In this document: one piece after another, positions 17,854 to 64,000 of the stretch
Position numbering within the stretch: position 1 is the first letter of the stretch
Layout: each line of letters begins with the position of its first letter
NCBI GenBank assembly: GCA_030650025.1
Contig: JAUSEN010000016.1
Location: forward strand, 9,428 to 73,427
Reading direction: 5' to 3'
Length of the DNA: 64,000 bases
DNA from: Candidatus Magasanikiibacteriota bacterium
GTDB lineage: Bacteria; Patescibacteriota; Patescibacteriia; Magasanikbacterales; GWA2-37-8
Position numbers and translations under genes: made by a program
The notes under the pieces: generated by a model
What the model was told of the DNA's origin: nothing
Databases searched by the model: none
The model's input: only the letters and a program-made list of their open reading frames with translations

Positions 17854-18252
17854 ATGATTAAAATGCAGAAATTTCTCGCTCCAATCATGATGTCTTTAAC
17901 ACTCGTTAGCGCCATGCCAGCGATCGCGGCGACAGACACTCTTAAGGATACGGATCTCTTACCGCCGAAGATAGGAGAAACGACCGGCCTTGGCACTGGT
18001 GATATCCGTTTGACCGTCGCGAAAATTATTCGCGTCGCTATGGGCCTCCTTGGTATCGTGGCCGTGGTTATTATCTTGATTGGCGGCTTTACTTGGATGA
18101 CCGCGGGCGGCAACGAAGAAAAGGTAGGCGAAGCCAAGAAATGGATTTTCGCCGGTATTATTGGTCTCGCGATTATTCTTTCCGCTTACGCGATTGCCAG
18201 CTTCGTTATTACGCAATTGGTGGACGCGACTACGCAAGCCGGAGTCATTTAG
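17854..18252 (+). CDS. pilin-module paralog 4 (short form)
   Basis: Signal peptide, short ectodomain, ILIGGFTWMTAGGNEEKVGEAKKWIFAGIIGLAIILSAYAIASFV. Confidence 0.65.
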   Translation: MIKMQKFLAPIMMSLTLVSAMPAIAATDTLKDTDLLPPKIGETTGLGTGDIRLTVAKIIRVAMGLLGIVAVVIILIGGFTWMTAGGNEEKVGEAKKWIFAGIIGLAIILSAYAIASFVITQLVDATTQAGVI

Positions 18253-18413
18253 TAGTCTCCAATTTATTAAGTTTCCATTGGTTAGCAGGGGGAGAAGAGA
18301 AACGACTAACTTGGTCAGCTTGCCAAGCCGAGCGCAGATAGAGATATATGCACTTCGCTTGGTAAGCTACCACCCCCTGCTCTGCCAATAAATTATTTTG
18401 AATTACGAACAGT

Positions 18414-18833
18414 ATGGCGAAAATATTTTTTAAAAAATCTGCTTGGGCGGGTATAGCGGCGGGCATCGCACTGCTCACAGCTTTAGTGGTTCCAGCAGAT
18501 TCAGCCAGGGCAATTTCGGATTTGGAATTGGGGCTGGATTATGGCACGTTTACCGGCTTAAGCTATAGCGACCCGAGAGCCGTGGCCGCGGCCATTATTC
18601 GGGTGGCTCTCGGGCTCCTCGGCACCGTGGCGTTAATAATTATTTTGATTGGCGGATATACTTGGATGACCGCGGGCGGCAACGAAGAAAAAGTAGAAGA
18701 AGCCAAAAAATGGATTAAAGCGGGCGTGATTGGCCTCGCGATTATACTTTCGGCTTTCGCGATTACCAGTTTTGTGGTGCAACAGTTGGTGCGAGCCACG
18801 CAAGAGGCGAGTAACGTAAATTTGGCGCAATAA
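18414..18833 (+). CDS. pilin-module paralog 5 (short form)
   Basis: ILIGGYTWMTAGGNEEKVEEAKKWIKAGVIGLAIILSAFAI; closely related to paralog 4. Confidence 0.65.
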   Translation: MAKIFFKKSAWAGIAAGIALLTALVVPADSARAISDLELGLDYGTFTGLSYSDPRAVAAAIIRVALGLLGTVALIIILIGGYTWMTAGGNEEKVEEAKKWIKAGVIGLAIILSAFAITSFVVQQLVRATQEASNVNLAQ

Positions 18834-18839
18834 TTTTTT

Positions 18840-19463
18840 ATGTTTAAAGTTAAAGCGTTAAGCGGAATTAGTGCCTTAATTTTAAGCTGGTCATTTTTAG
18901 TTCCCCTCCCGGCCTTGGCTGACAGCTATGGCATTAGCCAAACGGCAGACCAAGTAAACATTGAGAACCCAAATTTATTGCCAAAAACCGTGGCGGGAGA
19001 GTCCACGGTTCCAGAAGTTATTGGCGCGATTATTGGGTACGCACTGTCCCTCGTTGGCATAGTTTTTTTCGGCCTGATGCTTTACGCGGGCGTGCGCTGG
19101 ATGATTGCCATGGGCAACACGGAGGACGTGGAAAAGGCCAAGCAAACTTTGGAAGCGGCCGCCATTGGTTTAGTAATAGTTTTGGCGGCTTATGTTTTGA
19201 CTAGCGAGATATTTAAGGTTTTGAGCCCAGCCACCGCGCCGACGGATTCGGCGCAGTTAGACGCCAAGTTAGGGCAGAAATTAGGCGAGCCAGTCGATTG
19301 CACTAACGGCCAGAAGGAATTACTAGAGTCCGATGTGGATTGCGGGGGAATTTGCTCTAAGAAATGCGAAGCCGGAAAGCATTGTTCCGAAGGCAAGGAT
19401 TGCCTGTCCGGAGCTTGCCTCGCGTCTCGAGATCCAAACAATCCCGGTTTTATTTGCCAATAA
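18840..19463 (+). CDS. pilin-module paralog 6 with Cys-rich domain C-terminal to the TM hairpin
   Basis: [40 protein letters not shown] followed by [40 protein letters not shown]. Confidence 0.6.
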
Positions 19464-19481
19464 TTGTGAGTAGCGCTTTAT

Positions 19482-19886
19482 ATGATTATGATAAGAAAAG
19501 TTTTAAATAATATTTTTTTAACCGGGACGCTTTTGCTCTCTGGTTTAATTTTTACTAATTTTGTTTTTACTAATTTTGTTAGCGCGGTTGGTTTGTATGA
19601 CGCCGGCGGGAAGTTGGAACAGGCGGTCGGGGCGGATTCGCAGGTAGGTTTGCGCGGTGATTTAACCTCCACTATTACCACGGTAGTAACGGCAGTGTTA
19701 GCCGTTGTGGGCACAGTTTTTTTGCTTCTCACGATTTACGCTGGCATTCTTTGGATGACCGCGGCGGGTGCGGAAGACCAAATAGAAAAGGCGCAAAATA
19801 TAATTAAAGCCACGGTAATTGGTTTGTTTATAACCATGGGCGCGTACGCGATTACGGCTTTTGTGGGCGGGCGGTTAAGCGGCTAA
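19482..19886 (+). CDS. pilin-module paralog 7
   Basis: IYAGILWMTAAGAEDQIEKAQNIIKATVIGLFITMGAYAITAFV. Confidence 0.65.
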   Translation: MIMIRKVLNNIFLTGTLLLSGLIFTNFVFTNFVSAVGLYDAGGKLEQAVGADSQVGLRGDLTSTITTVVTAVLAVVGTVFLLLTIYAGILWMTAAGAEDQIEKAQNIIKATVIGLFITMGAYAITAFVGGRLSG

Positions 19887-19888
19887 GT

Positions 19889-20419
19889 ATGAGACGAGCC
19901 CAAGTAATTTTAATGCTGGTGGCGGTAGGCGGTATCACTTTTGGGGCGGTTACTTTTGGACAGGCTTTAGGGTTTCAGGATTCGGTTGGCCTGGTAACGA
20001 ACGCGGTGGGGCCAGCGACTAAGGTTGGTTTGGAAGGAAATTTAACCACGTCAATTGCGACAGCAGTTAAAATAGCGCTCGCCTTAGTCGGAACAATTTT
20101 TTTGGGTCTCACGGTTTACGCCGGGATTCTGTGGATGACGGCATCGGGAGCGGAAGACAAAATCGAAAAAGCGCAAGGCATAATTAAAGCCACGGTGATA
20201 GGCCTCGGCATCACTTTTGGAGCCTACGCGATTACAGCTTTTGTGGGCAGTAAATTAGGGGGCAGTGGCGCCCCTACCCCGAGCCAAGTTATTTCTTGCA
20301 CGGAAGCGCCCAATAATGGCAACTGCGTTACCGACAATGGCGCCCCTTGCCCGGGCGGCACCAAAGAAATCCAGGGGACTGATTGCGCCCCAGGCAAGCT
20401 CTGTTGCGCCCCGCTCTAA
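19889..20419 (+). CDS. pilin-module paralog 8 with short C-terminal Cys-rich tail
   Basis: VYAGILWMTASGAEDKIEKAQGIIKATVIGLGITFGAYAITAFV followed by ...CTEAPNNGNCVTDNGAPCPGG...CAPGKLCCAPL. Confidence 0.6.
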   Translation: MRRAQVILMLVAVGGITFGAVTFGQALGFQDSVGLVTNAVGPATKVGLEGNLTTSIATAVKIALALVGTIFLGLTVYAGILWMTASGAEDKIEKAQGIIKATVIGLGITFGAYAITAFVGSKLGGSGAPTPSQVISCTEAPNNGNCVTDNGAPCPGGTKEIQGTDCAPGKLCCAPL

Positions 20420-20451
20420 AAATGAAAAAATTATTTTAAATAGTAAAGGGT

Positions 20452-20958
20452 ATGATTAAAAATTTTTTAGTAAGTTTTATAATGATATTAGCCCTGATGC
20501 CCGGGGTCGCGTTGGCCGCGCCTAATATTGGTTTGGGTGAAGATGGGTTAGCGACAGGCGTCGCGGCGGGCGCGGGGTATGCCCCAGCCACGGACACGAC
20601 GCTGTCGGAATCGGTGGGTAAGGTCATTCGGGTGATTTTGTCCATGGTGGGAACAATTTTTCTGGCGCTAACGGTTTACGCCGGAATTCTGTGGATGACC
20701 GCGGCGGGAGCGGAAGACCAAATAGAAAAGGCGCAAAATATTATCAAGGCCGCGTCGCTTGGTTTAATAATCGTGATTGCCGCTTATGGCATAACCACTA
20801 TAGTGGTTGCGGCCATGACATTTGCCTCGCAACCAAATACCGGAGCAACTGTCGGGGGCAAGCCCAGCCAATCATTTTGGCAACAGCAAGGGCAGTATTG
20901 GCAAGACTGGGCTAACAATTGGAAAATTTCTACCAAGAGTATGTTTGGAATTAAATAG
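20452..20958 (+). CDS. pilin-module paralog 9
   Basis: VYAGILWMTAAGAEDQIEKAQNIIKAASLGLIIVIAAYGITTIV; about 85-90% nt identity to paralogs 7 and 8 across the module. Confidence 0.6.
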   Translation: MIKNFLVSFIMILALMPGVALAAPNIGLGEDGLATGVAAGAGYAPATDTTLSESVGKVIRVILSMVGTIFLALTVYAGILWMTAAGAEDQIEKAQNIIKAASLGLIIVIAAYGITTIVVAAMTFASQPNTGATVGGKPSQSFWQQQGQYWQDWANNWKISTKSMFGIK

Positions 20959-20962
20959 ATCG

Positions 20963-21052
20963 CGATTGCGCCGCGCTTCAAAGGACCCGCCCGCCTCGCT
21001 ACGCGAAGCGTTGCGGGCAGGCACTGCGCGGCACGATTTTGTTAAATCGCAT
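20963..21052 (+). promoter_or_regulatory. conserved structured 5' leader (variant B) ending in palindrome CGATTTTgttAAATCG + CATATG
   Basis: Shares gccgcgcttcaaagg...cactgcgcggca(c/t)gattt with leaders at 9278-9343 and 22911-22961; contains a nested GC palindrome homologous to 54606-54645. Confidence 0.55.
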
Positions 21053-21526
21053 ATGAAAAAACTTTTTGCGTATCAACTAGTGGCAGTATTCGTAGCGTTC
21101 CTCGCTTTGTCTTTTGTGGTAATAACCCCGGCGCGGGCGGAGGACACCAGCTCTGATATCCGGAAACAACTCGAGGCGGCGGGTGGCACGCAAGGCGCGA
21201 ATTATGGGGAAGCGGTTGACCCGCGAGTCACCGCGGCTTTGATTATTCGGGCGATGCTCGGCATGACTACGATTATTTTGATTATTTTAAATATTTACGC
21301 GGGAATCACTTGGATGACAGCCGGCGGAAACGAGGAAAAGGTGGACAAAGCCAAAACGACAATTAGAAATTCCACTATCGGACTGATTATTGTTTTGTCC
21401 GCTTACTCGATAACTGTTTTTGCCACTTACATCGCGCGGGGCCAGCAGTTTGGCCTCGGCGGCGGGCCTAACGCTTTATCGCGCGGTTTAGGCAATTTCT
21501 TCCAGTCGCGGCAGGGTCCGAATTAA
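21053..21526 (+). CDS. pilin-module paralog 10 (start moved to CATATG ATG 21053: MKKLFAYQLVAVFVAF...)
   Basis: The track ORF begins at 20822 but its first 77 aa are the translated GC-rich leader. A plausible signal peptide begins at 21053. C-terminal IYAGITWMTAGGNEEKVDKAKTTI module. Confidence 0.6.
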   Translation: MKKLFAYQLVAVFVAFLALSFVVITPARAEDTSSDIRKQLEAAGGTQGANYGEAVDPRVTAALIIRAMLGMTTIILIILNIYAGITWMTAGGNEEKVDKAKTTIRNSTIGLIIVLSAYSITVFATYIARGQQFGLGGGPNALSRGLGNFFQSRQGPN

Positions 21527-22315: not shown

Positions 22316-22506
22316 TATAAACCCTGCACCACAAGGGTGCAGGGCACCCTGAACTCTTGTAGTTCAGGGTGAACCGTAAAATGTAAGTTGATGATTAAAA
22401 TAGTTGGGTGCCCAATGGGAATTGTCTCCCTACGGGAGATCCCCCGTAGGGGGAAACCCATTTTGTACCAACTATAAAAAAAGTCGGATTGTTTATTATT
22501 GAATTG

Positions 22507-22712: not shown

Positions 22713-22910
22713 AAAAATAGCTTATCCCGCCACAGCGGGACCCCGCCTCGCGGCGGTGGGAAGGCTACTGTTTTATCCGCTCCGACGCCCCGCTTTGCGG
22801 GGGTCGGAGCCCCGACTTTACGTCGGGGTTAAACTATGGGATCAAGTGGCTCTATGGTAATCAATTTGGCCTTAAAAATCAAGTTATGGTATAATTTAAG
22901 AGTAACTAAT

Positions 22911-22961
22911 ATTTGCGCCGCGCTTCAGAGGACGTTGCGCGGCATGATTTCGTCAAATCAT
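22911..22961 (+). promoter_or_regulatory. conserved structured 5' leader (variant C) with palindrome TGATTTcgtcAAATCA + CATATG, preceded by an extended -10 (tggtataat at ~22888)
   Basis: ttgcgccgcgcttcagaggacgttgcgcggcatgatttcgtcaaatcatATG. Confidence 0.55.
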
Positions 22962-23324
22962 ATGTACAAGAAGATAAAAGTACTGTCGACTGTTTTTATA
23001 ACTTTTTTGGTTACTTGGCCAATGACAGCCCTGGCGCAATATGGTTTGAACGAAGCGGCCGGGAAAATGGGGTTTGATAGAAGCAAGAATGTTTACGGAG
23101 TGATTAGCCTCGTGGTGGGGGCAGCGTTGGCGTTTACCGGACTAGTGTTTTTTGGAATGATGATGTACGCTGGTGTGCGCTGGATGACCGCGCGCGGCAA
23201 CGAAGATTTGGCAGAGAAGGCCAAACAAGCCCTCGCGAATTCTACGATTGGTTTTGTAATCGTGGCGCTTTCTTACGCCCTGACGCGGTTTGTGTTTGGA
23301 GCGCTTAATTTGCCGACATTTTAA
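22962..23324 (+). CDS. pilin-module paralog 11 (start moved to ATG 22962: MYKKIKVLSTVFITFLVTWPMTALA)
   Basis: C-terminal MYAGVRWMTARGNEDLAEKAKQALANSTIGFVIVALSYALTRFV; the track ORF starts upstream inside the leader. Confidence 0.6.
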   Translation: MYKKIKVLSTVFITFLVTWPMTALAQYGLNEAAGKMGFDRSKNVYGVISLVVGAALAFTGLVFFGMMMYAGVRWMTARGNEDLAEKAKQALANSTIGFVIVALSYALTRFVFGALNLPTF

Positions 23325-26847: not shown

Positions 26848-26965
26848 AAAGATTGATGTTTAATTTGTTGTAGAGATGCCCCAGTAGAGACGCCCCAGCG
26901 GGGCGTCTCTACGTTATCTGGCGGTTGATTTTCTGGTTTAATTATGGTTAAATAGCGCGGCAATT

Positions 26966-29796: not shown

Positions 29797-30437
29797 AATT
29801 ATTTATAGACTCCGCTGTAATCAATGAAATCAAAACCGCCGTGAGCTGGGGGATGGTTGATGGCGTAACCACCAACCCGACTTTAATTATGCGGGCGGGT
29901 AAAGATTTTAAGACCACTATTTTAGAAATTTGTAAGATGGTTTCGGGCCCCGTGAGCGCAGAAACTATTTCGCCGGATGCTGAAGGCATGATTAGAGAGG
30001 GCCGGGAGTTTGCCAAGTGGCACAAAAATGTTTACGTAAAAGTGCCGTGCACGTCCGAGGGGCTTAAAGCCTGCCATGAATTAACTAAACTTGGAATAAA
30101 AGTAAATGTGACGTTGGTATTTTCGGCGAATCAGGTTTTGCTCGCGGCCAAGGCCGGAGCCGCGCTAATCTCACCCTTTGTGGGGCGTTTGGTAGACGCG
30201 GGTGAAGACGGCATGAAAATGATTCAAGAGGCAATGGCGATAATTAACAACTATCATTTTGCGGCGCGATTACTCGTGGCTTCGGTACGCGACACGCGCA
30301 TGGTAACAGACGCGGCCATACTCGGCGCGCACATTGCCACGGTGCCGTTTAAGGTGCTGGAGGCGATGTATAGACACCCGCTGACTGATAAGGGGATCCA
30401 AACTTTTTTAGAAGATTGGGCTAAAGCTAAGAAGTAA
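29793..30437 (+). CDS. transaldolase / fructose-6-phosphate aldolase family (short form)
   Basis: MKLFIDSAVINEIK...GVTTNPTLI and the KVP Schiff-base lysine region. Confidence 0.8.
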   Translation: MKLFIDSAVINEIKTAVSWGMVDGVTTNPTLIMRAGKDFKTTILEICKMVSGPVSAETISPDAEGMIREGREFAKWHKNVYVKVPCTSEGLKACHELTKLGIKVNVTLVFSANQVLLAAKAGAALISPFVGRLVDAGEDGMKMIQEAMAIINNYHFAARLLVASVRDTRMVTDAAILGAHIATVPFKVLEAMYRHPLTDKGIQTFLEDWAKAKK

Positions 30438-30500: not shown

Positions 30501-30529
30501 TTGACAGGGGAGTTTGGGTATAGTAAAAT
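30501..30529 (+). promoter_or_regulatory. near-consensus sigma70-type promoter (TTGACA-17-TAAAAT) embedded in a 9-bp inverted repeat, ~560 nt upstream of 23S
   Basis: ttgaca 30501-30506 and taaaat 30524-30529; flanking IR ccattttac (30488-96) / gtaaaatgg (30523-31). Confidence 0.5.
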
Positions 30530-32310
30530 GGTGCGTACCGCAAAAAGGTCGTTTTTTACGACCGCCACGTCCCCTGCACCAGAACGCTTCGCGTCCGGTT
30601 CAGGGCTTCGCAGTCTAGCTCTGGCTACTAGCGAAGCGCCACTCGGGACCTCTAGAAAATTGCGTAGCTTACACAAAAAACGATGTATATTGCTACAAAA
30701 TTTACTCGAGTTACTCCAAGTGGTTAAAAACCCCACCCATTTTATTGGGCCGCTTGGAAAAGCGGCTTTTATTATTTTGGTCGGCTCAGATCGGTGAGAC
30801 AGAGATTTCTCCCCGCTCTAGGCGGGTCGAAATGACAGTGCAGAGTGGACTGGCTGGTACTTTGACAATTCAGGCAAGCACCATGCACCACCATAAACCA
30901 CAAGGGTTTATGGCAAACAAGGGTGCATGGCTAAATAACCATGAACCACAAGGGTTCATGGCAAGATTAATGCTTATTTTAAACATCAAGGTCTGGTGTT
31001 TAAAATAATAAAGGGTAACTTCATAAACATGAATATTGTCATGAAAAATTATGAAGTCAACTCAACGTAAGCACCATTTGGTGTTTTCGTTGTGTGCAAT
31101 TTCAACAAGAGCATATGGTGGATGCCTAGACACTAAAAGATGAAGAAGGACGTTGCAAGGTGCGATAAGCCTCGGGGAGCTCCTAAGCAAGCTGTGATCC
31201 GGGGATTTCCGAATGGGGAAACCCGTTACAAAGAAATTTGTAACATCGTATACTGAATTCATAGGTGTACGAGGAAGACCTGGCGAAGTGAAACATCTCA
31301 GTAGCCAGAGGAAAATAAATCGAAGAGATTCCCTTAGTAGTGGCGAGCGAAAAGGGATCAGCCTAAACCTTATACATGTTGTTGCCGTAACAGATTGATC
31401 GCAAGGTTAATTATGAGCGGCAGTTTAAAGACGCAGGTCGTTGTGTATATGGTGTAATAAGACAATTACGCGTCCGCCCTGCGGCGGACGGTGAAAATGT
31501 GACTTTCCTAGTAGAACGCTCTGGAACGAGCGGCCGCAGAGGGTAAGAGCCCCGTACGCGAAAGGAGTCTATATAATCATGGTAGTTGTTCTTGAGTAGG
31601 GCGGAACTCGTGAAATTCCGTCTGAATTCGGGCCGACTATGGTCTAAGGCTAAATACTTTTAGTGATCGATAGTGGACTAGTACCACGAGGGAAAGGTGA
31701 AAAGTAGCCCGGTGAGGGCGATGAAATAGTATCTGAAACCATATGTTTACAAAGAGCGGAAGACCGGAGTACCCAGAATTATTCCCCCCTACGGGGGGAA
31801 TAATTCTGGGTCCTGGTCGACCGTGTTCCTATTGAAGAATGAGCCTGCGAGTGTGCTGTATGTCGTTGCTTAAACCCTTCTGGGGTGGAGGCATAGCGAA
31901 AGCGAGTCTTAACGGGCGTATATAATGGCATGCACATAACCCGAAACCGGGTGAGCTATCCATGACCAGGATGAACCCTTCCGAAAGGAAGGGGGAGGTC
32001 CGAACACACGAGCCGTGCAACACTCGGTGATGAGTTGTGGATGGGAGAGAAATTCTAATCGAACTCGGTGATAGCTGGTTCTCCTTGAAATAGTTTTAGG
32101 ACTAGCCTCGCGCGTTCCCTTTGGCGGTAGAGCACTGGATGAGACTCGGGTCCTTCGGGATACCAGTTTCAATCAAACTCCGAATGCCGAAGATTAAAAG
32201 CGCGGGAGTCAGACTGTGGGGGCTAAGCTCCATAGTCAAAAGGGAAACAGCCCTGATCGCCAGCTAAGGTCCCTAAATCCATATTAAGTGTGAAAGGTGG
32301 TGTTAACTCT

Positions 32311-32348
<38 letters not shown>

Positions 32349-33172
32349 TAAAGAAAGCGTAACAGCTCACTGGTCAAGAGTTTTCGCGCCGAAAATGTAC
32401 CGGGGCTAAATATGGTACCGAAGCTGCGAATTGGTAGATCCTCCGGGATTTACCTCTGGTAAAGGAGCGTTGGTAGCTGCGCTGAAGCCATAGCCGCGAG
32501 GCGTGGTGGAGTGCTACCAAGTGAGAATGCAGGCATGAGTAACAATAAGGGAAGTGAGAATCTTCCCCGCCGAAAATCCAAGGTTTCCTGGGCAACGAGA
32601 CTCGACCCAGGGTTAGTCGATCCTAAGGCCAGGCCGAAAGGCGTAACCGATGGAAGAGCAGGTTAATATTCCTGCACTTGGTATAGTTTGTTTGTTAGTG
32701 CGCATAGTGAAGCTGACAGCGTGTTTTGAATATACACGTTTCTTTACCCCGACGTGAAGTCGGGGCAGGGACGAAGATGAAGCCTTCGGGTGGAGTCAAC
32801 TGTCGGGGACGCTGTGCCTAGAAAAGCTAATAAACGTTAAGCTATATCAAACCGTACCGTAAACCGACACAGGTAGGTGAGTCGAGAAGACTAAGGCGTA
32901 CGAGAGAACCCTCTTTTAGGAACTCTGCAATACAGCGGCCGTAACTTAGGGATAAGGCCCGCCCCGATGTAAAAATCGGGGTTACAACAAAAGACGCACT
33001 GCGACTGTTTACCAAAAACACAGCTCCCTGCAAAAGCGCAAGCTGAAGTATAGGGAGTGATGCCTGGCCAGTGTCAGAACGTTAAGGCGAGAGGTTATCC
33101 GGTCATCCGACCGGAGAAGCCTTGAACTGAAGCGCTGATGAACGCCGGCGGTAACTATAACCGTCCTAAGGT

Positions 33173-33408
33173 AGCGGACTTGAGAAATCGAGCACGCTAG
33201 GATTGGGACGGATATAGCAAAAAGTAAACAATCATTAAAGATGAGCAGAGTCATCGAAATATTAACAGCCATTCAAAAAATGCTACCTTGCTTTGCAGTA
33301 ATGCAAAGAATAATCCGGTCATAGCTTATGAGAGACTATACGCTATGCTCCTCCGACGAAACTCGGAGGAAGAAGATTTAGTCCTTCGTCATTAAACAGG
33401 AAACGAAG
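33173..33408 (+). mobile_element. group I-like intron (ORF-less), inserted after the U of GGU|AGCG (E. coli ~L1931, helix 69/70 region)
   Basis: The conserved ccgtcctaaggt.agcgaaattccttgtcgg is interrupted by 236 nt; the 5' exon ends in U and the insert ends in G. Confidence 0.6.
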
Positions 33409-33430
33409 AGCGAAATTCCTTGTCGGGTAA

Positions 33431-33682
33431 ACCAAGAACTTGCCCCCTGGTCGAGTAATTGACCTTGAAGCAATAGCTGTATCGGTGGAACCCATAAAAA
33501 ATCGTGCAGATTAATTATGGGCAATACCGAGGGAAGTCCTCCCAAAATGGAGTGACCCCGTAGAGACTACACGCTGTCTCCCGAGTTATTCGGGATGAAG
33601 ATATAGTCCGATCCTGCCGAGTAATTGGCAGCCCTACGAAAATCAAAAATCTAAAATCATAAATCGAAAATTCGTAGATGGA
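33431..33682 (+). mobile_element. second 23S insertion (~252 nt) within GGGUAA|GUUCCGACC (E. coli ~L1951-1953); intron-like, ORF-less
   Basis: Conserved flanks gggtaa and gttccgacctgcacgaatgg are contiguous in E. coli; boundaries are uncertain by 1-2 nt. Confidence 0.55.
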
Positions 33683-34208
33683 GTTCCGACCTGCACGAAT
33701 GGCATAACGATAGTGCGACTGTCTCAAAGAGGGACTCGGTGAAATTGCAAGGAAGGTGAAGATGCCTTCTACCCGCAACTAGACGAAAAGACCCCGTGAA
33801 GCTTTACTACAGCTTGCTATTGGTATACGTGCACGTATGTTGAGCGTAGGTGGGACCCGCAAGGGGCCAATGAGACACCACCCTTATGTATATGTATGCC
33901 TAATCTCTGCCCGTGAATCCGGGGAGGGAGACAGTGGCTGGCGGGTAGTTTATCTGGGGCGGATGCCTCCTAAAATGTAACGGAGGCGTTTACAAAGGTA
34001 GGCTTAGCGCGGATGGAAATCGCGCTGGACGTGCAAACGCAAAAGCCTGCTTTACTGCAAGGGCTACAACCCGCGCAGTTGCGAAAGCAGAAGTTAGTGA
34101 ACCGACCATCCTATATAGGAAGGTGGAAGATCAACGGATAAAAGCTACTCCGGGGATAACAGGCTGATCGCGCCCAATAGTCCACATAGACGGCGCGGTT
34201 TGGCACCT

Positions 34209-34573
34209 TAAATTATCGGGGTGCATACAAAGTGATTTGTTTCCAAGTTTTTTCGTCTAAAACAATTATGTTAAGATAGAAATAGAGATTTAAATCGGCT
34301 TATAACGGTGAACCCGTCATCCCGCCTAAGGCGGGATCGGCAATACCGTGGGAAGTCGCCCATTAACTGTGGGTTGACCCCGTAACGACTGACCCGAAAG
34401 GGGAGACTCGGTTACAGTTAGTAATCGGGTAATACGCCGACTCTTATATTAATCAAACTGAGATCATGCGACTCACGCCCCGAGCAAGTCCCGAAAGGGA
34501 CAAGTCGAGGGGTCCGCTAACATCCAGTATAAGAAGAAGATATAGTCTGCCCCATACGAAAGTATGGAATCAT
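34209..34573 (+). mobile_element. third 23S insertion (~365 nt) in the peptidyl-transferase-centre strand GGCACC|U(A)CGAUGUCGG (E. coli ~L2500); intron-like, ORF-less
   Basis: tttggcacc ... tacgatgtcggctcatc flanks; no long ORF inside. Confidence 0.55.
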
Positions 34574-34636
34574 GTACGATGTCGGCTCATCGCATCCTGG
34601 GGGTGAAGAAGCTCCCAAGGGTTTGGCTGTTCGCCA

Positions 34637-34688
<52 letters not shown>

Positions 34689-35124
34689 CTATCTGTTGCG
34701 GGCGCAGAATGTTGCAAAGACTCTTCCCTAGTACGAGAGGACCGGGAAGAATAAACCTCTGGTGTGCGAGTTGTTCCGTCAGGAGCATTGCTCGGTAGCT
34801 ACGTTTAGCACGGATAAACGCTGAAAGCATCTAAGCGTGAAGCCGTCTTTAAGATTAACATTCGTTATAGACCCCTTGTAGATTACGAGGTTGATAGGCT
34901 CTACGTGTAAGCACAGTAATGTGTTGAGCGGAGGAGTACTAATCGGTCGAGCGCACAACGAAAGCATTAAGTGGTGCTCACCTCTTCGGTGAGTCTACGA
35001 GTTATGTTTGCCATGTCATTCGACATGGCCTTGCCTGAATTTAGTCATTGTAGTAAACTATTTTGAAAATTCCCCCGCCAAAAGCGGGATCAGCTCGCTA
35101 ACGCGAGCCGAAAAAAGAACTAAT

Positions 35125-38676: not shown

Positions 38677-38735
38677 AAATAAAATGATATTGTATCTGTA
38701 GGGGCGGGGTTACCCCGCCCCTACGTTGTATATTT

Positions 38736-49197: not shown

Positions 49198-50397
49198 ATG
49201 AATCTGTACGAATTTGAGGGAAAAAATTTATTGGCTAAACATGGAATTAAAACGCCGCGAGGCGTGGTGGTTCGGCGTGGGGATGATTTTGTTAGTAAGT
49301 ATAATGAATTAGTGAAATTGGGAATTAAAGACGTGGTGGTGAAGGCCCAAGTTTTGAGCGGTAAGCGTGGTAAAAATAATGGGATTAAATTTTGTGATAA
49401 TGGCGAGGAGGTAAAAAAGGCATGTGAGGAATTATTTACTTTAAATATTCGAGGGCAGTATGTGGCGGCTATATTAATTGAAGAAAAATTAGCCATTGCG
49501 GAAGAACATTATATTTCGATTGTTTATGATACTAACAAAAAACAGCCGTGTTTAATTTATAGTAAACAGGGAGGGATGGATATTGAGGATGTGGCAGAGG
49601 AGAAGATTGAGAAAGTGTGGTTGGATATTAGGGAAGAAAATGTCGTTGGCGTAGAGACGTTGCACGCAACGTCTCTACCGATTGATGAATTATGGAAATT
49701 ATTTTTAAACGAAGATACCCGGCAAGTAGAAATTAATCCGCTCGTGAAAACCAAATCTGGCGAATGGGTCGCGGCGGACGCAAAAATCGCGATTGATGAT
49801 GATGCTTTTTTTAGACACCCCTCGGCAAGCTCGGGGCCTTCGGTAACTGATTGGACCAAATTTGAGCCGCGGACAATGCTGGGGCGCCTGCCGACAAGCC
49901 GGGAAATTGCCGTCAAGAAAATTGATGAAGGCGAAAAATATTACCAAGGCACAGCCGGGAAGTATATTGAGCTCGACGGTGATATCGCGATGATTTTAAA
50001 CGGGGGTGGAGCGAGTATCGCCAATATGGACGCCCTAGCTCAAGTGGGACTCAAAGCTGCTAATTACACGGAATATTCCGGTAATCCACCGAGAGAAAAA
50101 GTCGCGGCGTTGGCGCGCATTGTACTATCTAAACCTGGTCTCAAGGGCCTTTGGATGTGTGGGGTAGTAGCCAATTTTACTAACATTAAAGAAACGTTTT
50201 TAGGGATTTGCGATGCCCTCGATGAAATTAAGCCGACTTACCCAATTGTCGTCCGGCGCGACGGCACGGAGAGTGCCGCGGGGTTCGCATTATTAGAAGA
50301 ATGCGCCAAGCGTAATAATTTGAATATTAAAATGTTTAAAAAGGAAACCGGCATGAGTGCCACGGCGCAAATTTTGGCGGAGATGATAGAAAAATAA
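49198..50397 (+). CDS. SucC-like ATP-grasp subunit (succinyl-CoA synthetase beta / citryl-CoA synthetase large subunit-like)
   Basis: MNLYEFEGKNLLAKHGI... ATP-grasp N-domain and the ...DGDIAMILNGGGASIANMD ligase-CoA motif. Confidence 0.7.
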   Translation: MNLYEFEGKNLLAKHGIKTPRGVVVRRGDDFVSKYNELVKLGIKDVVVKAQVLSGKRGKNNGIKFCDNGEEVKKACEELFTLNIRGQYVAAILIEEKLAIAEEHYISIVYDTNKKQPCLIYSKQGGMDIEDVAEEKIEKVWLDIREENVVGVETLHATSLPIDELWKLFLNEDTRQVEINPLVKTKSGEWVAADAKIAIDDDAFFRHPSASSGPSVTDWTKFEPRTMLGRLPTSREIAVKKIDEGEKYYQGTAGKYIELDGDIAMILNGGGASIANMDALAQVGLKAANYTEYSGNPPREKVAALARIVLSKPGLKGLWMCGVVANFTNIKETFLGICDALDEIKPTYPIVVRRDGTESAAGFALLEECAKRNNLNIKMFKKETGMSATAQILAEMIEK

Positions 50398-54191: not shown

Positions 54192-55277
54192 ATGCAATAC
54201 CAAATTTTAGAAGTAAACCCAGTTTCCGGTTATGAATTGTTAGATTCGGGTGATGGCGAAAAATTAGAGCGCTATGGCGATGTTGTAGTTGTACGGCCAG
54301 ACCCACAGGCCTTATGGCGCAAGAAGCTGCCGGAGAGCGAGTGGCAAAAAGCCAACGCTTATTTTAAACCCCGCATCACCATAAACCACAAGGGTTTATG
54401 GCAAACAAGGGTGCAGGGCGAGCGTGATAGTAAGAGCGCAGAGTGGCAGACGCGCAGCGAGATTCCAGCACGGTGGCCAATTGAATTTGGGGGTTTAAAG
54501 TTTTGGATTAAACTTTCGGCTTTTAAGCATACGGGGTTATTTCCGGAACAGCTTCCGAATTGGGTTTGGCTGCAAGAAAAAATACGATTGGCGAGACCCC
54601 ACCCCCGCCCGACTTCGCTACGGCGAAGCCGTTGCGGGCGGGCTGCCCTCCCCTTTGCGAAGGGGATGGGAAGCGATACCCCCTCTGTCGCAACGGAGGG
54701 GGAAGGGGGAGGACTGGCGCGCGTTTTAAATTTATTTGGCTATACCGGTGGGGCGACGCTCGCTTGCGCGCAGGCTGGCGCCAGTGTTGTCCATGTGGAT
54801 GCTAGCAAGTCCGCCATTGGATGGGGGAGGGATAACGCGGTGCTTTCCGGCTTAGATAAAAAACCAATTCGTTGGATACTAGACGATGCCGCGACGTTTG
54901 TGCGTCGCGAAATTAAGCGCGGCAACAAATATGATGGCATCATTATGGATCCGCCGGCTTTTGGACACGGACCTAACCGAGAACTTTGGAAAATAGAAGA
55001 TCATTTTTTACCGCTTCTTGAGGATTGTAAAAAAATATTAAGCAGAGAGCCTCTGTTTTTTTTGGTGAATGGCTATGCCTCGGGGTATTCGGCCGTGGCT
55101 TATGAAAATAGTTTAGGTGATTTGTTAAAACACACCCCCCGGCCCCCTCTTGTTAGAGGGGGAGGCGAAAAAGATAATCTAGGAAATATAGAAATTGGTG
55201 AATTGACGATTGCCGAGAGCGGGAGTGGCAGAATTTTGCCAGCTGGTATTTTCGCGCGCTGGAGCGCCCCGCAGTAA
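54192..55277 (+). CDS. RlmI/RlmK-like SAM-dependent rRNA methyltransferase carrying in-frame palindromic insertions
   Basis: NLFGYTGGATLACAQAGA...VDASKSAI (motif I) and DPPAFG (motif IV). GC-rich low-complexity inserts at 54377-54418, 54593-54718 and 55131-55168. Confidence 0.65.
   Translation: MQYQILEVNPVSGYELLDSGDGEKLERYGDVVVVRPDPQALWRKKLPESEWQKANAYFKPRITINHKGLWQTRVQGERDSKSAEWQTRSEIPARWPIEFGGLKFWIKLSAFKHTGLFPEQLPNWVWLQEKIRLARPHPRPTSLRRSRCGRAALPFAKGMGSDTPSVATEGEGGGLARVLNLFGYTGGATLACAQAGASVVHVDASKSAIGWGRDNAVLSGLDKKPIRWILDDAATFVRREIKRGNKYDGIIMDPPAFGHGPNRELWKIEDHFLPLLEDCKKILSREPLFFLVNGYASGYSAVAYENSLGDLLKHTPRPPLVRGGGEKDNLGNIEIGELTIAESGSGRILPAGIFARWSAPQ
54593..54718. repeat. nested GC-rich palindromic mini-element (in-frame inside CDS)
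   Basis: gagaccccaccc...ccctcccctttgcgaagggga.gggaa...ccccctc.gtcgcaacggagggggaagggggagg; related to 61947-62033 and 20985-21020. Confidence 0.65.
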
Positions 55278-63099: not shown

Positions 63100-63150
63100 C
63101 GTAATTTTTTTTCATAAAAAAACCCTGAACCACATAGGATTCAGGGTTAG
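63100..63150. terminator. bidirectional intrinsic terminator (ccctgaa...ttcaggg hairpin between T and A tracts)
   Basis: ttttttttcataaaaaaaccctgaaccacataggattcagggtt. Confidence 0.55.
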
Positions 63151-63465: not shown

Positions 63466-63538
63466 GTGTCTCCATGAGGAATTGAACCTCAATTACAGGC
63501 TTCGGAGGCCTGTGTTTTATCCGTTAAACTATGGAGAC
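63466..63538 (-). tRNA. tRNA-Arg(CCG)
   Basis: Reverse complement: acceptor gtctcca/tggagac, D stem gttt/aaac, anticodon stem caggc/gcctg with loop ctCCGaa, T arm tgaggttcaattcctca. Confidence 0.8.
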
Positions 63539-63784
63539 CTTATTTAAAAAATCCCTAATCTGTTGTCGCAGTAATCTTTTGCCTTCTGTCGTTTTTAAAA
63601 ATTTTTCTCTCCTTTCTGCATCGGATTTTTCTAGGTAGCATTCATAATGAACTAACATTGGCATTTTATTTTTAGTCGAAGCAACTCTATCCTGTTTATG
63701 TTGGTTCACACGTTTAGCCAAGTCAGCAGTTGACCCTTTGTATAAATCGCCATTTTTTAATAATAGAATATATGTATAATACAT
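63524..63784 (-). CDS. GIY-YIG nuclease-family small protein
   Basis: YYTYILLLKNGDLYKGSTADLAKRVNQH matches GIY-x10-YIG. The 3' end overlaps tRNA-Arg by ~15 nt, so the true C-terminus may be shorter. Confidence 0.7.
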   Translation of the reverse strand: MYYTYILLLKNGDLYKGSTADLAKRVNQHKQDRVASTKNKMPMLVHYECYLEKSDAERREKFLKTTEGKRLLRQQIRDFLNKVSIV

Positions 63785-64000
63785 ATTGTGGTTAACTTCG
63801 CCCAGTCATTCGACTGGGCGCCCGGTCGTATGACCGGGCGGAGGCCGGTATCCTATCCGTTGAACGACGAGGACTAAACTAAACGCCGCACAGCGCGCAG
63901 CGCCTCGTATATCCTATACTGGAGAGGGGAAATAATCAAGTCAAAAGTCCCGGGCTTTTCTGCTGTATAGCCACCAAAATTAATTTTAAACCGGGTCACA

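What the first reader, a model, noticed from the sequence alone, without database searches (positions are those of the whole stretch)
30881..30961. Expandable nested palindrome family with an invariant CC-ACAA-GG loop: copies in the rRNA leader, after a CDS and inside a CDS
ccatgcacc[accataaacc-ACAA-gggtttatgg]caaacaa-gggtgcatgg is a hairpin nested inside a hairpin, followed by a second unit ccatgaacc-ACAA-gggttcatgg. The outer pair without the inner unit occurs at 22322-22344 (ccctgcacc-ACAA-gggtgcaggg). At 54377-54418 the inner unit plus caaacaagggtgcaggg lies in-frame in the RlmI-like ORF, a 41-nt near-identical match to the rRNA leader. Stems covary while the loop stays fixed, which suggests selection on hairpin structure (a DNA cruciform or RNA element) and mobility or templated copying.
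Basis: seen in the sequence. Interest (0 to 1): 0.55.

Follow-up and report, generated by a model that had tools for sequence, protein, structure and literature searches.

The report
Mobile mini-hairpin repeats linked to GIY-YIG
A 23-base hairpin-forming DNA module has been copied to several places in this Magasanikbacteria (candidate phyla radiation) genome, including inside another copy and in frame inside a gene, and in related genomes the same module sits beside a tiny GIY-YIG nuclease gene lodged at tRNA genes, which suggests a selfish hairpin/nuclease partnership that I could not find described.

Summary
The window holds four perfect hairpins with a 9-bp stem and a 5-nt loop ACAAG, two interrupted "outer" units each carrying an inner unit in its loop, and an abutting partner hairpin with the complementary loop CTTGT.

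All 19 aligned homologs lack this sequence, though two carry unrelated inserts at the site.

A scan of species-representative genomes found more than 117 further copies in Patescibacteria, Planctomycetota/Brocadiales, Nitrospirales and other groups. Their unconstrained stem positions are overwhelmingly complementary.

The module typically occurs as a "double hairpin": two abutting hairpins with similar stems and complementary loops. It usually sits in the loop of another hairpin, such as a tRNA D-, anticodon or T-loop, an rRNA helix tip, a GTAG-type REP, or another module.

In candidate phyla radiation genomes, double hairpins mark the boundary of cassettes built around an ~85-aa GIY-YIG nuclease gene next to a tRNA gene. 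Each cassette has a displaced partial copy of that tRNA. The window has one complete cassette and two ORF-less remnants, all with other hairpin families.

Best reading: a REP/REPIN-like, non-autonomous mobile hairpin family. Mobilisation by the GIY-YIG nuclease is inferred, not shown. No Rfam family matches, and I found no description in the literature searched.

The parts
30882..30930 (+). Nested composite. The outer unit ccatgcacc...ggtgcatgg has its ACAAG loop interrupted by a 27-nt insert, which is the inner unit plus 4 flanking bases.
   Evidence: the DNA fold reproduces the nesting.
30891..30913 (+). Inner unit ccataaacc-ACAAG-ggtttatgg, with a CAA tail.
30939..30961 (+). Single unit ccatgaacc-ACAAG-ggttcatgg with a CAAG tail. 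The same 23-mer is the first hairpin of the double hairpin in L010, L017, L077, L087 and L102, and it also occurs in L021.
22322..22371 (-). Double hairpin. Read on the - strand (the strand of the neighbouring tRNA genes), H1 is caccctgaact-ACAAG-agttcagggtg (22371-22345) and H2 is ccctgcacc-CTTGT-ggtgcaggg (22344-22322). It lies between the glycosyltransferase stop codon (22315) and the tRNA-His cassette remnant.
54369..54422 (+). 54-nt in-frame insertion (18 aa, PRITINHKGLWQTRVQGE) in the class I SAM-dependent methyltransferase CDS (54192-55277). It consists of a nested composite (outer unit decayed to 7 of 9 pairs, inner unit at 54379-54401) plus cgag.
30572..30614 (+). Probable degenerate member. 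Arms ccctgcacc / ggttcaggg enclose a small inner hairpin in place of the loop.
   Evidence: read by eye and not tested statistically.
63123..63146 (+). Variant unit ccctgaacc-ACATAG-gattcaggg (8 of 9 pairs), downstream of the CDS 61745-63085.
63799..63840 (-). Double hairpin of a second family: cgcccggtc-ATAC-gaccgggcg and cgcccagtc-GAAT-gactgggcg, sharing a 2-nt CG. It sits in the anticodon loop of a displaced tRNA-Arg(CCG) 5' half.
63841..63874 (-). Displaced 5' half of a tRNA-Arg(CCG)-like gene, roughly 75% identical by eye to the intact gene. It ends at the anticodon.
63524..63784 (-). 86-aa GIY-YIG nuclease ORF. Its 3' end overlaps the start of the intact tRNA-Arg(CCG) gene (63466-63538).
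   Evidence: PF01541, E = 4.8e-12; UPF0213 structures 1zg2 and 1ywl.
22404..22472 (-). ORF-less cassette remnant: a partial 3' copy of tRNA-His with a double hairpin (22425-22454, tccccc-TAC-ggggga / tctccc-GTA-gggaga) in its T-loop. It lies just downstream of the intact tRNA-His gene.
22716..22843 (-). ORF-less cassette remnant: a tRNA-Arg-like 5' half with a double hairpin in the D-loop (22780-22828, second hairpin itself nested) and a hairpin pair in the anticodon loop (about 22725-22759). It directly abuts the intact tRNA-Arg(TCT) gene.
35010..35029 (+). Solo hairpin of the second family (gccatgtc-ATTC-gacatggc) in the 23S-5S spacer. It abuts the 3' strand of the putative processing stem.
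30867..30878 (+). 5' strand of a putative 23S leader/trailer stem (AATTCAGGCAAG), complementary to 35030-35041. The ACAAG cluster starts 3 nt after it.
   Evidence: A 12-nt perfect match is expected about 0.004 times by chance for these two regions.

Best explanation
The ACAAG hairpins are copies of a small, non-autonomous, palindromic mobile DNA module. It has a 9-bp stem CCnTGnACC/GGTnCAnGG, a 5-nt loop, and often a 3' CAA/CAG tail. It is of the same general kind as REP/REPIN elements.

Its full form is a double hairpin: two abutting hairpins with near-identical stems and complementary loops, so the second is an inverted copy of the first.

Copies are added without a detectable target-site duplication. 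They go preferentially into the single-stranded tip of an existing hairpin-forming sequence. This is what produces the hairpin-in-hairpin nesting, the insertions in tRNA D-, anticodon and T-loops, and the insertions at rRNA helix tips. In coding DNA only in-frame, tolerated insertions survive, such as the 54-nt insert in the methyltransferase gene.

Composites, once formed, are copied as units. That explains the 40-of-41 match between the 23S leader copy and the genic copy.

In candidate phyla radiation genomes, and in at least one planctomycete lineage, the double hairpin is physically coupled to an ~85-aa GIY-YIG nuclease gene of the UPF0213 type. The hairpin lies at the boundary of a cassette that sits at a tRNA gene and keeps that gene intact by duplicating part of it.

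I infer that this nuclease nicks or cuts hairpin tips, and that repair copies the module (or the whole cassette) into the break. On this reading the window's ACAAG copies are solo and nested offshoots of such a system.

Shown here: the existence of the family, its covariation, filled versus empty sites, nesting, loop targeting, and the physical association with GIY-YIG/tRNA cassettes.

Inferred: that the GIY-YIG protein is the mobilising enzyme, and that insertion goes through break repair.
For: Repetition and structure
- Statistics and fold.
- The window has 33 perfect hairpins against 5.9 in shuffles.

Filled versus empty sites
- The 54-nt insert sequence is absent from all 19 aligned homologs. 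17 of them have a gap across the inserted residues.
- In partial tRNA copies, the 46-nt double hairpin sits exactly between GGTA and GAC(G/A)C, compared with the intact paralog next door, with no duplication (L017, L051, L046, L077).

Family beyond the window
- More than 117 loci. 53 of 118 units have all three free stem pairs Watson-Crick, against 6.3 in shuffles.
- 37 of 98 palindromic units carry a CAA/CAG tail.

Insertion into hairpin loops
- Nesting occurs in the window and in L101/L109/L117. 13 of 117 units lie in a close outer palindrome, against 3.4 in controls.
- ACAAG units sit inside GTAG-type REP stems in Planctomycetota.
- A 41-nt hairpin is inserted exactly in a terminal loop of 23S.
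- Tsurumaki 2024 (PMC11270868) reports that insertion sequences in candidate phyla radiation rRNA genes lie mostly at the top or base of stem-loops.

GIY-YIG link
- ACAAG-family double hairpins lie between a displaced tRNA-Leu fragment and a GIY-YIG ORF in L081 and L087. They also lie next to the ORF in L010, L203, L205 and L207.
- A double hairpin with CCATGCACC and GTGAACC stems lies about 30 nt upstream of the homologous ORF in Planctomycetota (L209-L211).
- In 80 metagenome loci of the window-type GIY-YIG, 69 have a same-strand tRNA directly adjacent. 44 of 50 have hairpins upstream.
- Where placed, the double hairpins sit in the T-loop (21), anticodon loop (8) or D-loop (3) of a partial copy of that same tRNA. 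The mirror-image arrangement exists when the tRNA is upstream of the ORF.
- Hairpin family tracks the GIY-YIG group. 0 of 80 window-type loci have CCnTGnACC hairpins, while 60 have the other family types that the search pattern covered, mostly GTC/GAC. 6 of 8 L081-type loci have CCnTGnACC hairpins.
- The protein carries a GIY-YIG domain (PF01541). Its closest solved structures are UPF0213 proteins, with a weak match to the structure-specific nuclease SLX1.
Against: - No nuclease activity or target has been shown.
- The window's only GIY-YIG gene is paired with a different hairpin family. No GIY-YIG gene of the ACAAG-associated group lies in these 64 kb.
- Protein identity does not sharply predict hairpin family. 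L156 is 64% identical to the L081 group yet carries GTC/GAC hairpins. Strict cognate recognition is therefore unproven, and simple co-inheritance within one cassette would give the same correlation.
- Pseudo-tRNA arms next to the cassettes may merely be tolerant hairpin loops that any loop-seeking element would colonise.
- GIY-YIG enzymes form no covalent DNA intermediate, so they cannot transpose DNA in the way HUH enzymes do. A repair step has to be assumed.
- Genomes rich in ACAAG hairpins (the Planctomycetota MAGs JACQVQ01 and MHYW01, and Nitrospirales) could not be checked for the nuclease.
- 24 of 65 cassettes had no clean double hairpin by my strict criteria, although several of these have degenerate ones by eye.
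Confidence: 0.55

Rival explanations
1. They are a REP family mobilised, like classical REPs/REPINs, by a HUH tyrosine transposase (RAYT or IS200/IS605-like) acting on single-stranded hairpins at the replication fork. On this reading the GIY-YIG neighbourhood is incidental.
For: - The format matches: 9-bp stem, 5-nt loop, a short 3' tail, inverted doublets, clusters, occasional intragenic copies and insertion inside other palindromes. All are described for REPs (Di Nocera 2013, PMC3733652).
- No target duplication is seen.
- GTAG-headed REPs coexist in the window (26884, 38698, 49651).
- GTAG-type REPs enclose ACAAG units in Planctomycetota.
Against: - The units carry neither the GTAG nor the CGTC head that defines the two REP superfamilies.
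- All-against-all clustering of ORFs from the 117 fetched genome loci surfaced no transposase-like family. The only widely shared neighbours identified were two-component system proteins.
- The recurrent neighbour that is specific to the hairpins is a GIY-YIG gene.
- Presence of a RAYT elsewhere in these genomes was not tested.
Confidence: 0.17
2. No dedicated enzyme is involved. The hairpins arise and spread through replication template switching (quasi-palindrome correction, fold-back synthesis) and ectopic gene conversion between similar hairpins.
For: - Stems change on both arms together, which is what palindrome correction produces.
- Double hairpins are inverted copies of one hairpin.
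- Tandem arrays of fragment + hairpin units exist (L022/L051, L194).
- The CAAG-like tail resembles the loop sequence, as fold-back copying could give.
- Many unrelated hairpin families coexist in the window.
Against: - Identical 23-mers and an identical 41-nt composite occur at unrelated loci and in different phyla.
- Insertions land precisely at loop tips.
- The hairpins are coupled to one particular gene family in two phyla. Passive slippage alone does not predict this.
Confidence: 0.15
3. They are host-selected functional structures at their present sites, such as RNA processing or stability signals, terminators, or binding sites for a conserved protein, rather than selfish insertions.
For: - Within the window all ACAAG loops read in the sense direction of the local transcript.
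- One cluster lies just inside the putative 23S processing stem, and another family's hairpin abuts the opposite strand.
- The core ACCACAAGGGT is conserved across phyla.
Against: - There is no T-run after the hairpins.
- One copy sits in frame in a protein, at a site where 17 of 19 homologs have nothing.
- Copies occur in both orientations inside long ORFs elsewhere (16 sense, 11 antisense).
- No Rfam family matches.
- Copies lie in pseudo-tRNA fragments.
- Co-option of individual copies is not excluded.
Confidence: 0.08

Closest known systems
REP / REPIN elements with RAYT transposases (Bertels & Rainey 2011, PMC3116915; Di Nocera 2013, PMC3733652)
   Same: - Short (about 20-25 nt) hairpin-forming repeats with covarying stems.
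- Short unpaired tails.
- Singlets, inverted doublets and clusters.
- Distribution across several phyla.
- Occasional in-frame genic copies.
- Insertion inside other palindromes.
- A master copy sitting next to a nuclease gene, comparable to a REPtron.
   Different: - No GTAG or CGTC head.
- The two hairpins of a doublet abut directly, whereas by my recollection REPIN doublets have a spacer between the two REPs.
- Strong preference for hairpin loops, including tRNA and rRNA loops.
- The associated gene is a GIY-YIG nuclease, not a HUH tyrosine transposase.
Rickettsia palindromic elements (RPE; Ogata et al. 2000, from my own knowledge; mentioned in PMC3733652)
   Same: Selfish palindromic DNA inserted in frame in protein-coding genes, and also in RNA genes, of a reduced genome.
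   Different: By my recollection RPEs are about 100-150 bp. Here the unit is 23 nt, or 46-50 nt as a doublet or nested composite. Sequence similarity was not tested. No nuclease partner is known to me for RPEs.
Mitochondrial double-hairpin elements, GC clusters and repetitive hairpin-forming elements (Allomyces double-hairpin elements, Paquin et al. 2000, from my own knowledge; yeast GC clusters PMC4478555; sponge hairpin-forming elements PMC2800124; titles and abstracts seen)
   Same: Tiny mobile elements, in some cases folding into two adjacent hairpins. From my own recollection of that literature, they invade intergenic DNA, rRNA variable regions and coding sequence and can nest.
   Different: Those are organellar, with unrelated sequences and no mobilising enzyme known to me. 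Here the elements are bacterial and tied to a specific nuclease gene and to tRNA genes.
Free-standing GIY-YIG homing endonucleases, e.g. phage T4 SegB in the tRNA gene cluster (PMC2330249), and GIY-YIG-bearing non-intron insertions in candidate phyla radiation rRNA genes (Tsurumaki 2024, PMC11270868)
   Same: A GIY-YIG gene lodged among or inside stable-RNA genes. The cassette architecture would allow homing by double-strand-break repair, with the tRNA sequence serving as homology arms.
   Different: - The protein here is only the ~85-aa catalytic domain (UPF0213 type). By my recollection, SegB and I-TevI also carry a DNA-binding domain, which is absent here.
- The cassette duplicates part of the tRNA.
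- The cassette carries a double hairpin at its boundary.
- The hairpin also disperses on its own.
Very small dispersed repeats of cyanobacteria (Elhai et al. 2008, from my own knowledge; not retrieved)
   Same: By my recollection: repeats of about 20-27 nt, found nested within one another and inside genes.
   Different: A different phylum and different sequences. No associated nuclease or tRNA cassette has been reported, to my knowledge.

Membership tests
REP/REPIN-RAYT | Short (20-40 nt) imperfect palindrome present in many copies per genome | tested here: met
   23-nt units: 4 perfect units plus 2 interrupted ones, a partner hairpin and a variant in 64 kb.
REP/REPIN-RAYT | Conserved GTAG (or CGTC) tetranucleotide at one end | tested here: not met
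   The 5' flanks are heterogeneous, and units start with CC and end with GG. The only conserved flank is a 3' CAA/CAG tail, in 37 of 98 units. Definition from PMC3733652.
REP/REPIN-RAYT | Inverted doublets as the mobile unit | tested here: met
   Abutting H1/H2 pairs with complementary loops (ACAAG/CTTGT, ATCC/GGAT, TAC/GTA) in the window and in many loci.
REP/REPIN-RAYT | A cognate RAYT (HUH Y1 transposase) gene flanked by the repeats | not tested
   Only 64 kb of the source genome and 8-kb pieces of others were available. ORF clustering of those pieces surfaced no transposase-like family, but no HMM search for Y1 transposases was run.
MITE | Terminal inverted repeats plus a target-site duplication | tested here: not met
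   Filled versus empty tRNA sites show clean insertion with no duplication (GGTA|46 nt|GAC). For the second family, at most an ambiguous 2-nt CG.
Free-standing GIY-YIG homing endonuclease cassette | ORF with a GIY-YIG catalytic domain | tested here: met
   PF01541: E = 4.8e-12 (window ORF), 7.8e-17 (L081), 1.9e-14 (L087). UPF0213 structures 1zg2 and 1ywl.
Free-standing GIY-YIG homing endonuclease cassette | Consistent insertion next to or within a conserved host gene that supplies homology for repair | tested here: met
   69 of 80 loci have a same-strand tRNA abutting the ORF, with a partial duplicate of that tRNA on the other side.
Free-standing GIY-YIG homing endonuclease cassette | Site-specific cleavage of the cassette-less allele, and presence/absence polymorphism between close relatives | not testable with these tools
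   This needs biochemistry and genomes at strain level.
Structured RNA family (Rfam), tRNA or group I intron | Match to a curated covariance model | tested here: not met
   No hit at the hairpins at gathering or E-value thresholds. Only chance-level matches were returned, with E about 0.2.
CRISPR array | Regularly spaced identical repeats separated by unique spacers | tested here: not met
   Contexts in Nitrospirales and other loci that looked repeat-like are irregular mosaics of different hairpins.

The most novel reading that the evidence does not exclude
These double hairpins and the ~85-aa UPF0213-type GIY-YIG proteins form a two-part selfish system, analogous to REPIN/RAYT but built on a different nuclease fold. 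The nuclease cuts the tips of extruded or single-stranded hairpins. These include tRNA-gene arms, rRNA helix tips and other hairpin modules. Repair then pastes in the hairpin module or the whole cassette.

Master copies persist at tRNA genes through a duplicative, homing-like insertion that rebuilds an intact tRNA. The system has crossed phylum boundaries (Patescibacteria and Planctomycetota). It would explain many of the short, uncharacterised insertions in candidate phyla radiation rRNA, tRNA-flanking and protein-coding sequences.
Probability: 0.3. Interest if true: 0.85.

Novelty: new variant of a known kind. Interest (0 to 1): 0.68.

Why it matters
Small palindromic repeats are among the least understood mobile DNAs in bacteria. 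Only the REP/RAYT pair has an identified enzyme.

- This is a new sequence family with an unusually clear insertion rule: into hairpin loops. It spans several phyla.
- It has a recurrent physical link to a tiny GIY-YIG nuclease of previously unknown function (UPF0213). That makes a mobilisation mechanism directly testable in vitro.
- It offers an explanation for the many short non-intron insertions reported in candidate phyla radiation rRNA genes.
- It would explain peptide insertions in candidate phyla radiation proteins, where three hairpin-derived inserts lengthen this one methyltransferase by about 70 aa.
- It would explain the pseudo-tRNA fragments that flank tRNA genes in these reduced genomes.
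- It matters for annotation: inflated ORFs, false tRNA fragments, and contig breaks.

Tried and rejected
- QMITE elements of Coxiella. I first suspected Coxiella because of the 23S intron, but QMITEs are 150-400 bp with direct repeats and the organism is a Magasanikbacteria MAG.
- Full-text search for the core sequence on both strands returned only unrelated primers.
- Rfam at gathering and permissive thresholds, on the window and on 8 loci, returned nothing at the hairpins.
- CRISPR-like arrays in Nitrospirales and the BMS3Bbin08 MAG were rejected on irregular context.
- Viral origin: only 4 matches in IMG/VR. By my rough estimate that is at or below chance.
- A shared neighbouring transposase: clustering ORFs from the 117 genome loci gave only two-component kinases and regulators as widely shared families, which are uninformative. 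The small GIY-YIG cluster (L010, L081, L087) was in that output but I only recognised it later.
- Orientation bias inside ORFs: 16 sense against 11 antisense, so no clear bias.
- Exact look-up of the methyltransferase gene in the contig index failed, so I could not reach the rest of the source contig.
- Strict one-to-one pairing of GIY-YIG subgroup and hairpin family is only partly supported.
- A literature search for small dispersed repeats of cyanobacteria did not retrieve the paper I remembered.
- I did not annotate all 64 genes of the window with Pfam. The first roughly 30 kb (genes up to about position 29800) were only read by eye.
Full report
**1. The observation**

The hairpin geometry needs one correction. 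The stem is 9 bp and the loop is the five bases ACAAG, because the left arm ends in CC and the right arm begins at the second G of GGG.

Four perfect units exist:
- 22322-22344: CCCTGCACC stem
- 30891-30913 and 54379-54401: CCATAAACC stem
- 30939-30961: CCATGAACC stem

Two further outer units are interrupted by the CCATAAACC unit:
- 30882-30930: CCATGCACC ... GGTGCATGG
- 54369-54418: CCCCGCATC ... GGTGCAGGG, with 7 of 9 positions pairing

The 41-nt stretches starting at 30889 and 54377 differ at a single base. The 9-mer CCACAAGGG occurs four times against 0.31 expected. As single-stranded DNA, 30876-30966 folds into the nested hairpin plus the second hairpin, with z = -7.7.

First, the 22322 unit is directly followed by a second hairpin, caccctgaact-CTTGT-agttcagggtg (22345-22371). 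Its stem is a variant of the same family and its loop is the reverse complement of ACAAG. Second, there is a variant at 63123-63146. Third, there is a probable decayed member at 30572-30614.

**2. The organism and the genic copy**

The window is from a Candidatus Magasanikbacteria MAG. The 361-aa methyltransferase is 100% identical to an NCBI protein of that name. Other features fit the candidate phyla radiation: a 23S-5S unit without 16S, a group I intron in 23S, and type IV secretion system (T4SS) pilin genes.

Homologs of the methyltransferase are typically 287-295 aa. In an alignment of 20 sequences, residues 60-77 of the window protein (PRITINHKGLWQTRVQGE) are encoded by 54369-54422, which is 54 nt. 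That stretch is the nested composite plus cgag. It falls between ...AYFK and RDSKS..., where 17 of the 19 other sequences have a gap across the inserted residues. The other two carry unrelated inserts.

So this is a multiple-of-3 insertion at a variable surface site, not native sequence.

The same gene has two more hairpin-derived inserts of other families: 54596-54715 (itself nested) and 55132-55170. P0002 shares the LPFAKG-type insert, and P0054 has a different insert at the third site.

**3. The window is full of short hairpins**

Perfect hairpins with a stem of at least 8 bp and a loop of 3-7 nt number 33, against a mean of 5.9 (range 1-9) in 20 dinucleotide shuffles. They include:
- GTAG-headed REPs at 26884, 38698 and 49651 (the last inside a CDS);
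- a hairpin pair in the CDS 61745-63085;
- several hairpins inside 23S.

The ACAAG family is therefore one of several hairpin families in this genome.

**4. The family outside the window**

I scanned one genome per species with CCNTNNACCACAAGGGTNNANGG, leaving three stem pairs free.

- Of 118 units, 53 have all three free pairs Watson-Crick. Uniform expectation is 1.8. Shuffles that keep column composition give a mean of 6.3 and a maximum of 16.
- One pair occurs as A-T 32, C-G 32, T-A 27 and G-C 3. That is true covariation.

Genomes with several loci each:
- Magasanikbacteria: LBSX01, JACRFW01, JAHFHV01
- Two Planctomycetota MAGs: JACQVQ01 with 11 loci, MHYW01 with 7
- Brocadiales
- Nitrospirales and the BMS3Bbin08 MAG
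- Candidate division FCPU426
- Omnitrophota

The window's 22322 unit is the commonest 23-mer in the scan (15 copies). The 30939 unit is the second commonest (9 copies).

Other observations:
- 37 of 98 palindromic units are followed by CAA or CAG. This is a short tail of the kind described for REPs.
- Viral contigs gave only 4 hits.
- Rfam gave nothing.
- Repeat-like contexts in Nitrospirales are irregular mosaics, not CRISPR arrays.
- Inside long ORFs both orientations occur.

**5. Two rules: double hairpins, and insertion into hairpin loops**

In candidate phyla radiation loci the unit is usually the first half of a 46-nt double hairpin. An example is CCATGAACC-ACAAG-GGTTCATGG followed directly by CCGTGCACC-CCTGT-GGTGCACGG. 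The second hairpin has a slightly different stem and a loop complementary, or nearly so, to the first. The same format holds for unrelated sequence families in the window: TAC/GTA, ATAC/GAAT and GTAAA.

These elements sit inside the loops of other hairpin-forming sequences:
- inside another unit, in the window and in L101/L109/L117;
- inside GTAG-type REP stems, in the Planctomycetota loci L040, L053 and L084;
- inside a GAGACGCC stem in candidate division FCPU426 (L013, L029);
- in tRNA D-, anticodon and T-loops;
- for a 41-nt hairpin of another family, exactly in a terminal loop of 23S.

13 of 117 units have a close outer palindrome, against 3.4 in controls.

Comparing a hairpin-bearing partial tRNA copy with the intact gene beside it gives exact filled and empty sites. 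The pattern is ...GGTA | 46 nt | GAC..., with no target duplication (L017, L051, L046, L077).

**6. The GIY-YIG / tRNA cassettes**

In L081 and L087 the ACAAG double hairpin lies in a defined arrangement: a displaced 5' fragment of tRNA-Leu(CAA), then the double hairpin, then an 80-84-aa ORF, then the intact tRNA-Leu. The ORF is a GIY-YIG nuclease (PF01541). Its closest solved structures are UPF0213 proteins, and it has a weak match to SLX1.

Relatives of that ORF carry hairpins of the same stem family next to the gene:
- L203 (77% identity)
- L205/L206 (64%)
- L207 (62%)
- L010

In L203 and L205/L206 the neighbouring tRNA is tRNA-Leu. In L010 it is tRNA-Lys, and L207 has no tRNA nearby.

A 56%-identical gene in Planctomycetota (Hypogeohydataceae, L209-L211) has the double hairpin agCCATGCACC-acgttg-GGTGCATGGct / GTGAACC-cgatgt-GGTTCAC about 30 nt upstream, without a tRNA. 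CCATGCACC is the stem of the window's outer unit.

The window has its own homolog at 63784-63524 on the - strand. On that strand, from 5' to 3', the order is:
1. a tRNA-Arg(CCG)-like 5' half (63874-63841);
2. a double hairpin of the GTC/GAC family in its anticodon loop (63840-63799);
3. the ORF;
4. the intact tRNA-Arg(CCG) (63538-63466).

I scanned metagenomes with an alignment of these proteins and kept 80 loci.
- 54 have a same-strand tRNA starting within about 150 nt after the stop codon, mostly within 30 nt. Another 15 have a tRNA ending 0-24 nt before the start codon, most within 11 nt.
- 44 of 50 have perfect hairpins upstream.
- With strict criteria, 41 of 65 have a clean double hairpin. 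It lies in the T-loop (21), anticodon loop (8) or D-loop (3) of a partial copy of the same tRNA, with 9 unplaced.
- When the tRNA is upstream, the arrangement is the mirror image: tRNA, ORF, then the T-arm with the double hairpin in its loop, then the duplicated 3' end.

ORF-less versions exist in L017, L022/L051 (as a tandem array), L046, L077 and L102. The window has two: 22404-22472 (tRNA-His 3' part, double hairpin in the T-loop) and 22716-22843 (tRNA-Arg 5' half, double hairpins in the D- and anticodon loops).

Hairpin family follows the nuclease group. None of 80 window-type loci has CCnTGnACC hairpins, while 60 have the other family types that the search pattern covered, mostly GTC/GAC. 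6 of 8 L081-type loci have CCnTGnACC hairpins. Protein identity is not a sharp predictor, however.

**7. The rRNA context**

The cluster at 30881-30961 lies 132-212 nt before the 23S 5' end. The 12 bases just before it, AATTCAGGCAAG (30867-30878), are perfectly complementary to 35030-35041 in the 23S-5S spacer. About 0.004 such matches are expected by chance. This is a plausible processing stem, so the cluster is probably part of the pre-rRNA leader.

A solo hairpin of the GTC/GAC family (35010-35029) abuts the other strand of that stem. Another lies inside the 23S gene (about 33097-33114).

Upstream there is a strong promoter-like site (30501-30529) and a terminator-like hairpin (30747-30768). 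These bound a transcribed-looking stretch of about 240 nt that has no Rfam match.

**8. Mechanism**

Shown:
- A repeated, covarying hairpin module exists.
- It has been added at sites that are empty in orthologs or paralogs.
- It leaves no target duplication.
- It prefers hairpin tips.
- It occurs as inverted doublets.
- It propagates as composites.
- It is physically coupled to a GIY-YIG gene in two phyla.

Inferred: the GIY-YIG protein is a bare catalytic domain related to structure-specific nucleases. I infer that it cuts hairpin tips and that repair copies the module or the cassette into the break.

The cassette architecture fits homing by break repair. The displaced tRNA part and the intact tRNA would provide the two homology arms, and the double hairpin would disrupt the loop of the displaced copy. 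I give this about even odds.

The rivals:
- A HUH/RAYT-type enzyme as for classical REPs. The format fits, but the GTAG/CGTC head is absent and no such gene was seen.
- Enzyme-free template switching and gene conversion.
- Host-selected structural elements.

**9. Comparison with what is known**

The closest match is REP/REPIN. The defining head motif is not met, and the partner enzyme, if my inference is right, is of a different fold.

Other resemblances are Rickettsia palindromic elements (in-frame genic insertion), mitochondrial double-hairpin elements and GC clusters (format and invasiveness), and T4 SegB (a GIY-YIG gene among tRNA genes).

Tsurumaki et al. 2024 noted three relevant things in candidate phyla radiation rRNA genes: GIY-YIG genes in non-intron insertions, many short uncharacterised insertions, and placement of most insertions at the top or base of stem-loops. 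They did not describe the hairpin modules or the tRNA cassettes.

Searches for GIY-YIG together with tRNA-gene and hairpin terms, candidate phyla radiation, or palindromic-repeat terms found no such description. Absence from this library is not proof of novelty.

**10. Limits**

- Only 64 kb of the source genome and short pieces of other genomes were available.
- The 80 metagenome loci were the best matches to the window's protein, so they are not a random sample.
- Taxon labels of some MAGs are doubtful. Several loci labelled "uncultured Gammaproteobacteria" look like candidate phyla radiation genomes.
- No experiment supports the nuclease role.

Noticed in passing
window 63466-63874 (- strand): A complete cassette: a displaced tRNA-Arg(CCG) 5' half, a double hairpin in its anticodon loop, an 86-aa GIY-YIG ORF, and the intact tRNA-Arg(CCG) overlapping the ORF's 3' end. 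The same architecture recurs in most of 80 metagenome loci.
   Followed up: yes
window 22404-22472 and 22716-22843 (- strand): Pseudo-tRNA fragments (a tRNA-His 3' part and a tRNA-Arg 5' half) flank the intact tRNA-His and tRNA-Arg(TCT) genes. Each carries double hairpins in tRNA loop positions. They look like ORF-less remnants of the cassettes.
   Followed up: partly
window 31771-31811 (in 23S), 33097-33114 (in 23S), 35010-35029 (23S-5S spacer): Hairpin insertions in the rRNA unit. The 41-nt one (19-bp stem) sits exactly in a terminal loop of a 23S helix according to the Rfam alignment. The other two belong to the GTC/GAC family that accompanies the window's GIY-YIG gene.
   Followed up: partly
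window 31093-34959, 33419-33631: The 23S gene is 3867 nt against a 2925-nt model, has a group I intron, and has no 16S gene upstream. This unlinked, insertion-rich rRNA gene is typical of the candidate phyla radiation. Insertions other than the intron and the hairpins were not mapped.
   Followed up: no
window 30867-30878 and 35030-35041: A 12-nt perfect complementarity brackets the 23S gene. It is a likely pre-rRNA processing stem. Hairpin modules sit immediately inside both strands.
   Followed up: partly
window 30501-30770: A near-consensus promoter-like site (TTGACA-17-TAAAAT) is followed about 220 nt later by a terminator-like hairpin with a T-run. The ORFs in between have no Pfam hit, and the stretch has no Rfam match. 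It may be an unannotated small RNA gene, and it contains a decayed hairpin-family member.
   Followed up: partly
window 26884-26912, 38698-38724, 49651-49678: GTAG-headed perfect palindromes (GTAGAGACGCCCC..., GTAGGGGCGGGG..., GTAGAGACGTTG...). These look like classical GTAG-type REPs in a candidate phyla radiation genome. The third lies inside the CDS 49198-50397.
   Followed up: no
window 54596-54715, 55132-55170, 61962-62019: Other GC-rich hairpin families are inserted in frame in coding sequence: two more in the methyltransferase gene, and a hairpin pair in the CDS 61745-63085. They give peptides such as LPFAKGMG. Some methyltransferase homologs show similar peptides at the same sites.
   Followed up: partly
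L019, L054, L058, L072, L082, L096 (Streptomyces); L036, L066 (Gordonia): The same hairpin core lies within a longer perfect palindrome (AGCTCCGGT-CCCTGAACC-ACAAG-GGTTCAGGG-ACCGGAGCT). In Streptomyces assemblies it sits mostly at contig ends, which suggests a multi-copy element of its own there.
   Followed up: no
window 17854-21526 and 22836-23324: A run of small paralogous genes encodes secreted or membrane proteins with a shared ...MTAGGNEEK... motif. One further paralog matched Pfam T4SS_pilin (PF18895).
   Followed up: no
L022/L051 and L194: Tandem arrays of [tRNA 5' fragment + double hairpin + spacer] units, or of single hairpins, lie upstream of a tRNA gene. This would fit repeated rounds of cutting and repair at one site.
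   Followed up: no
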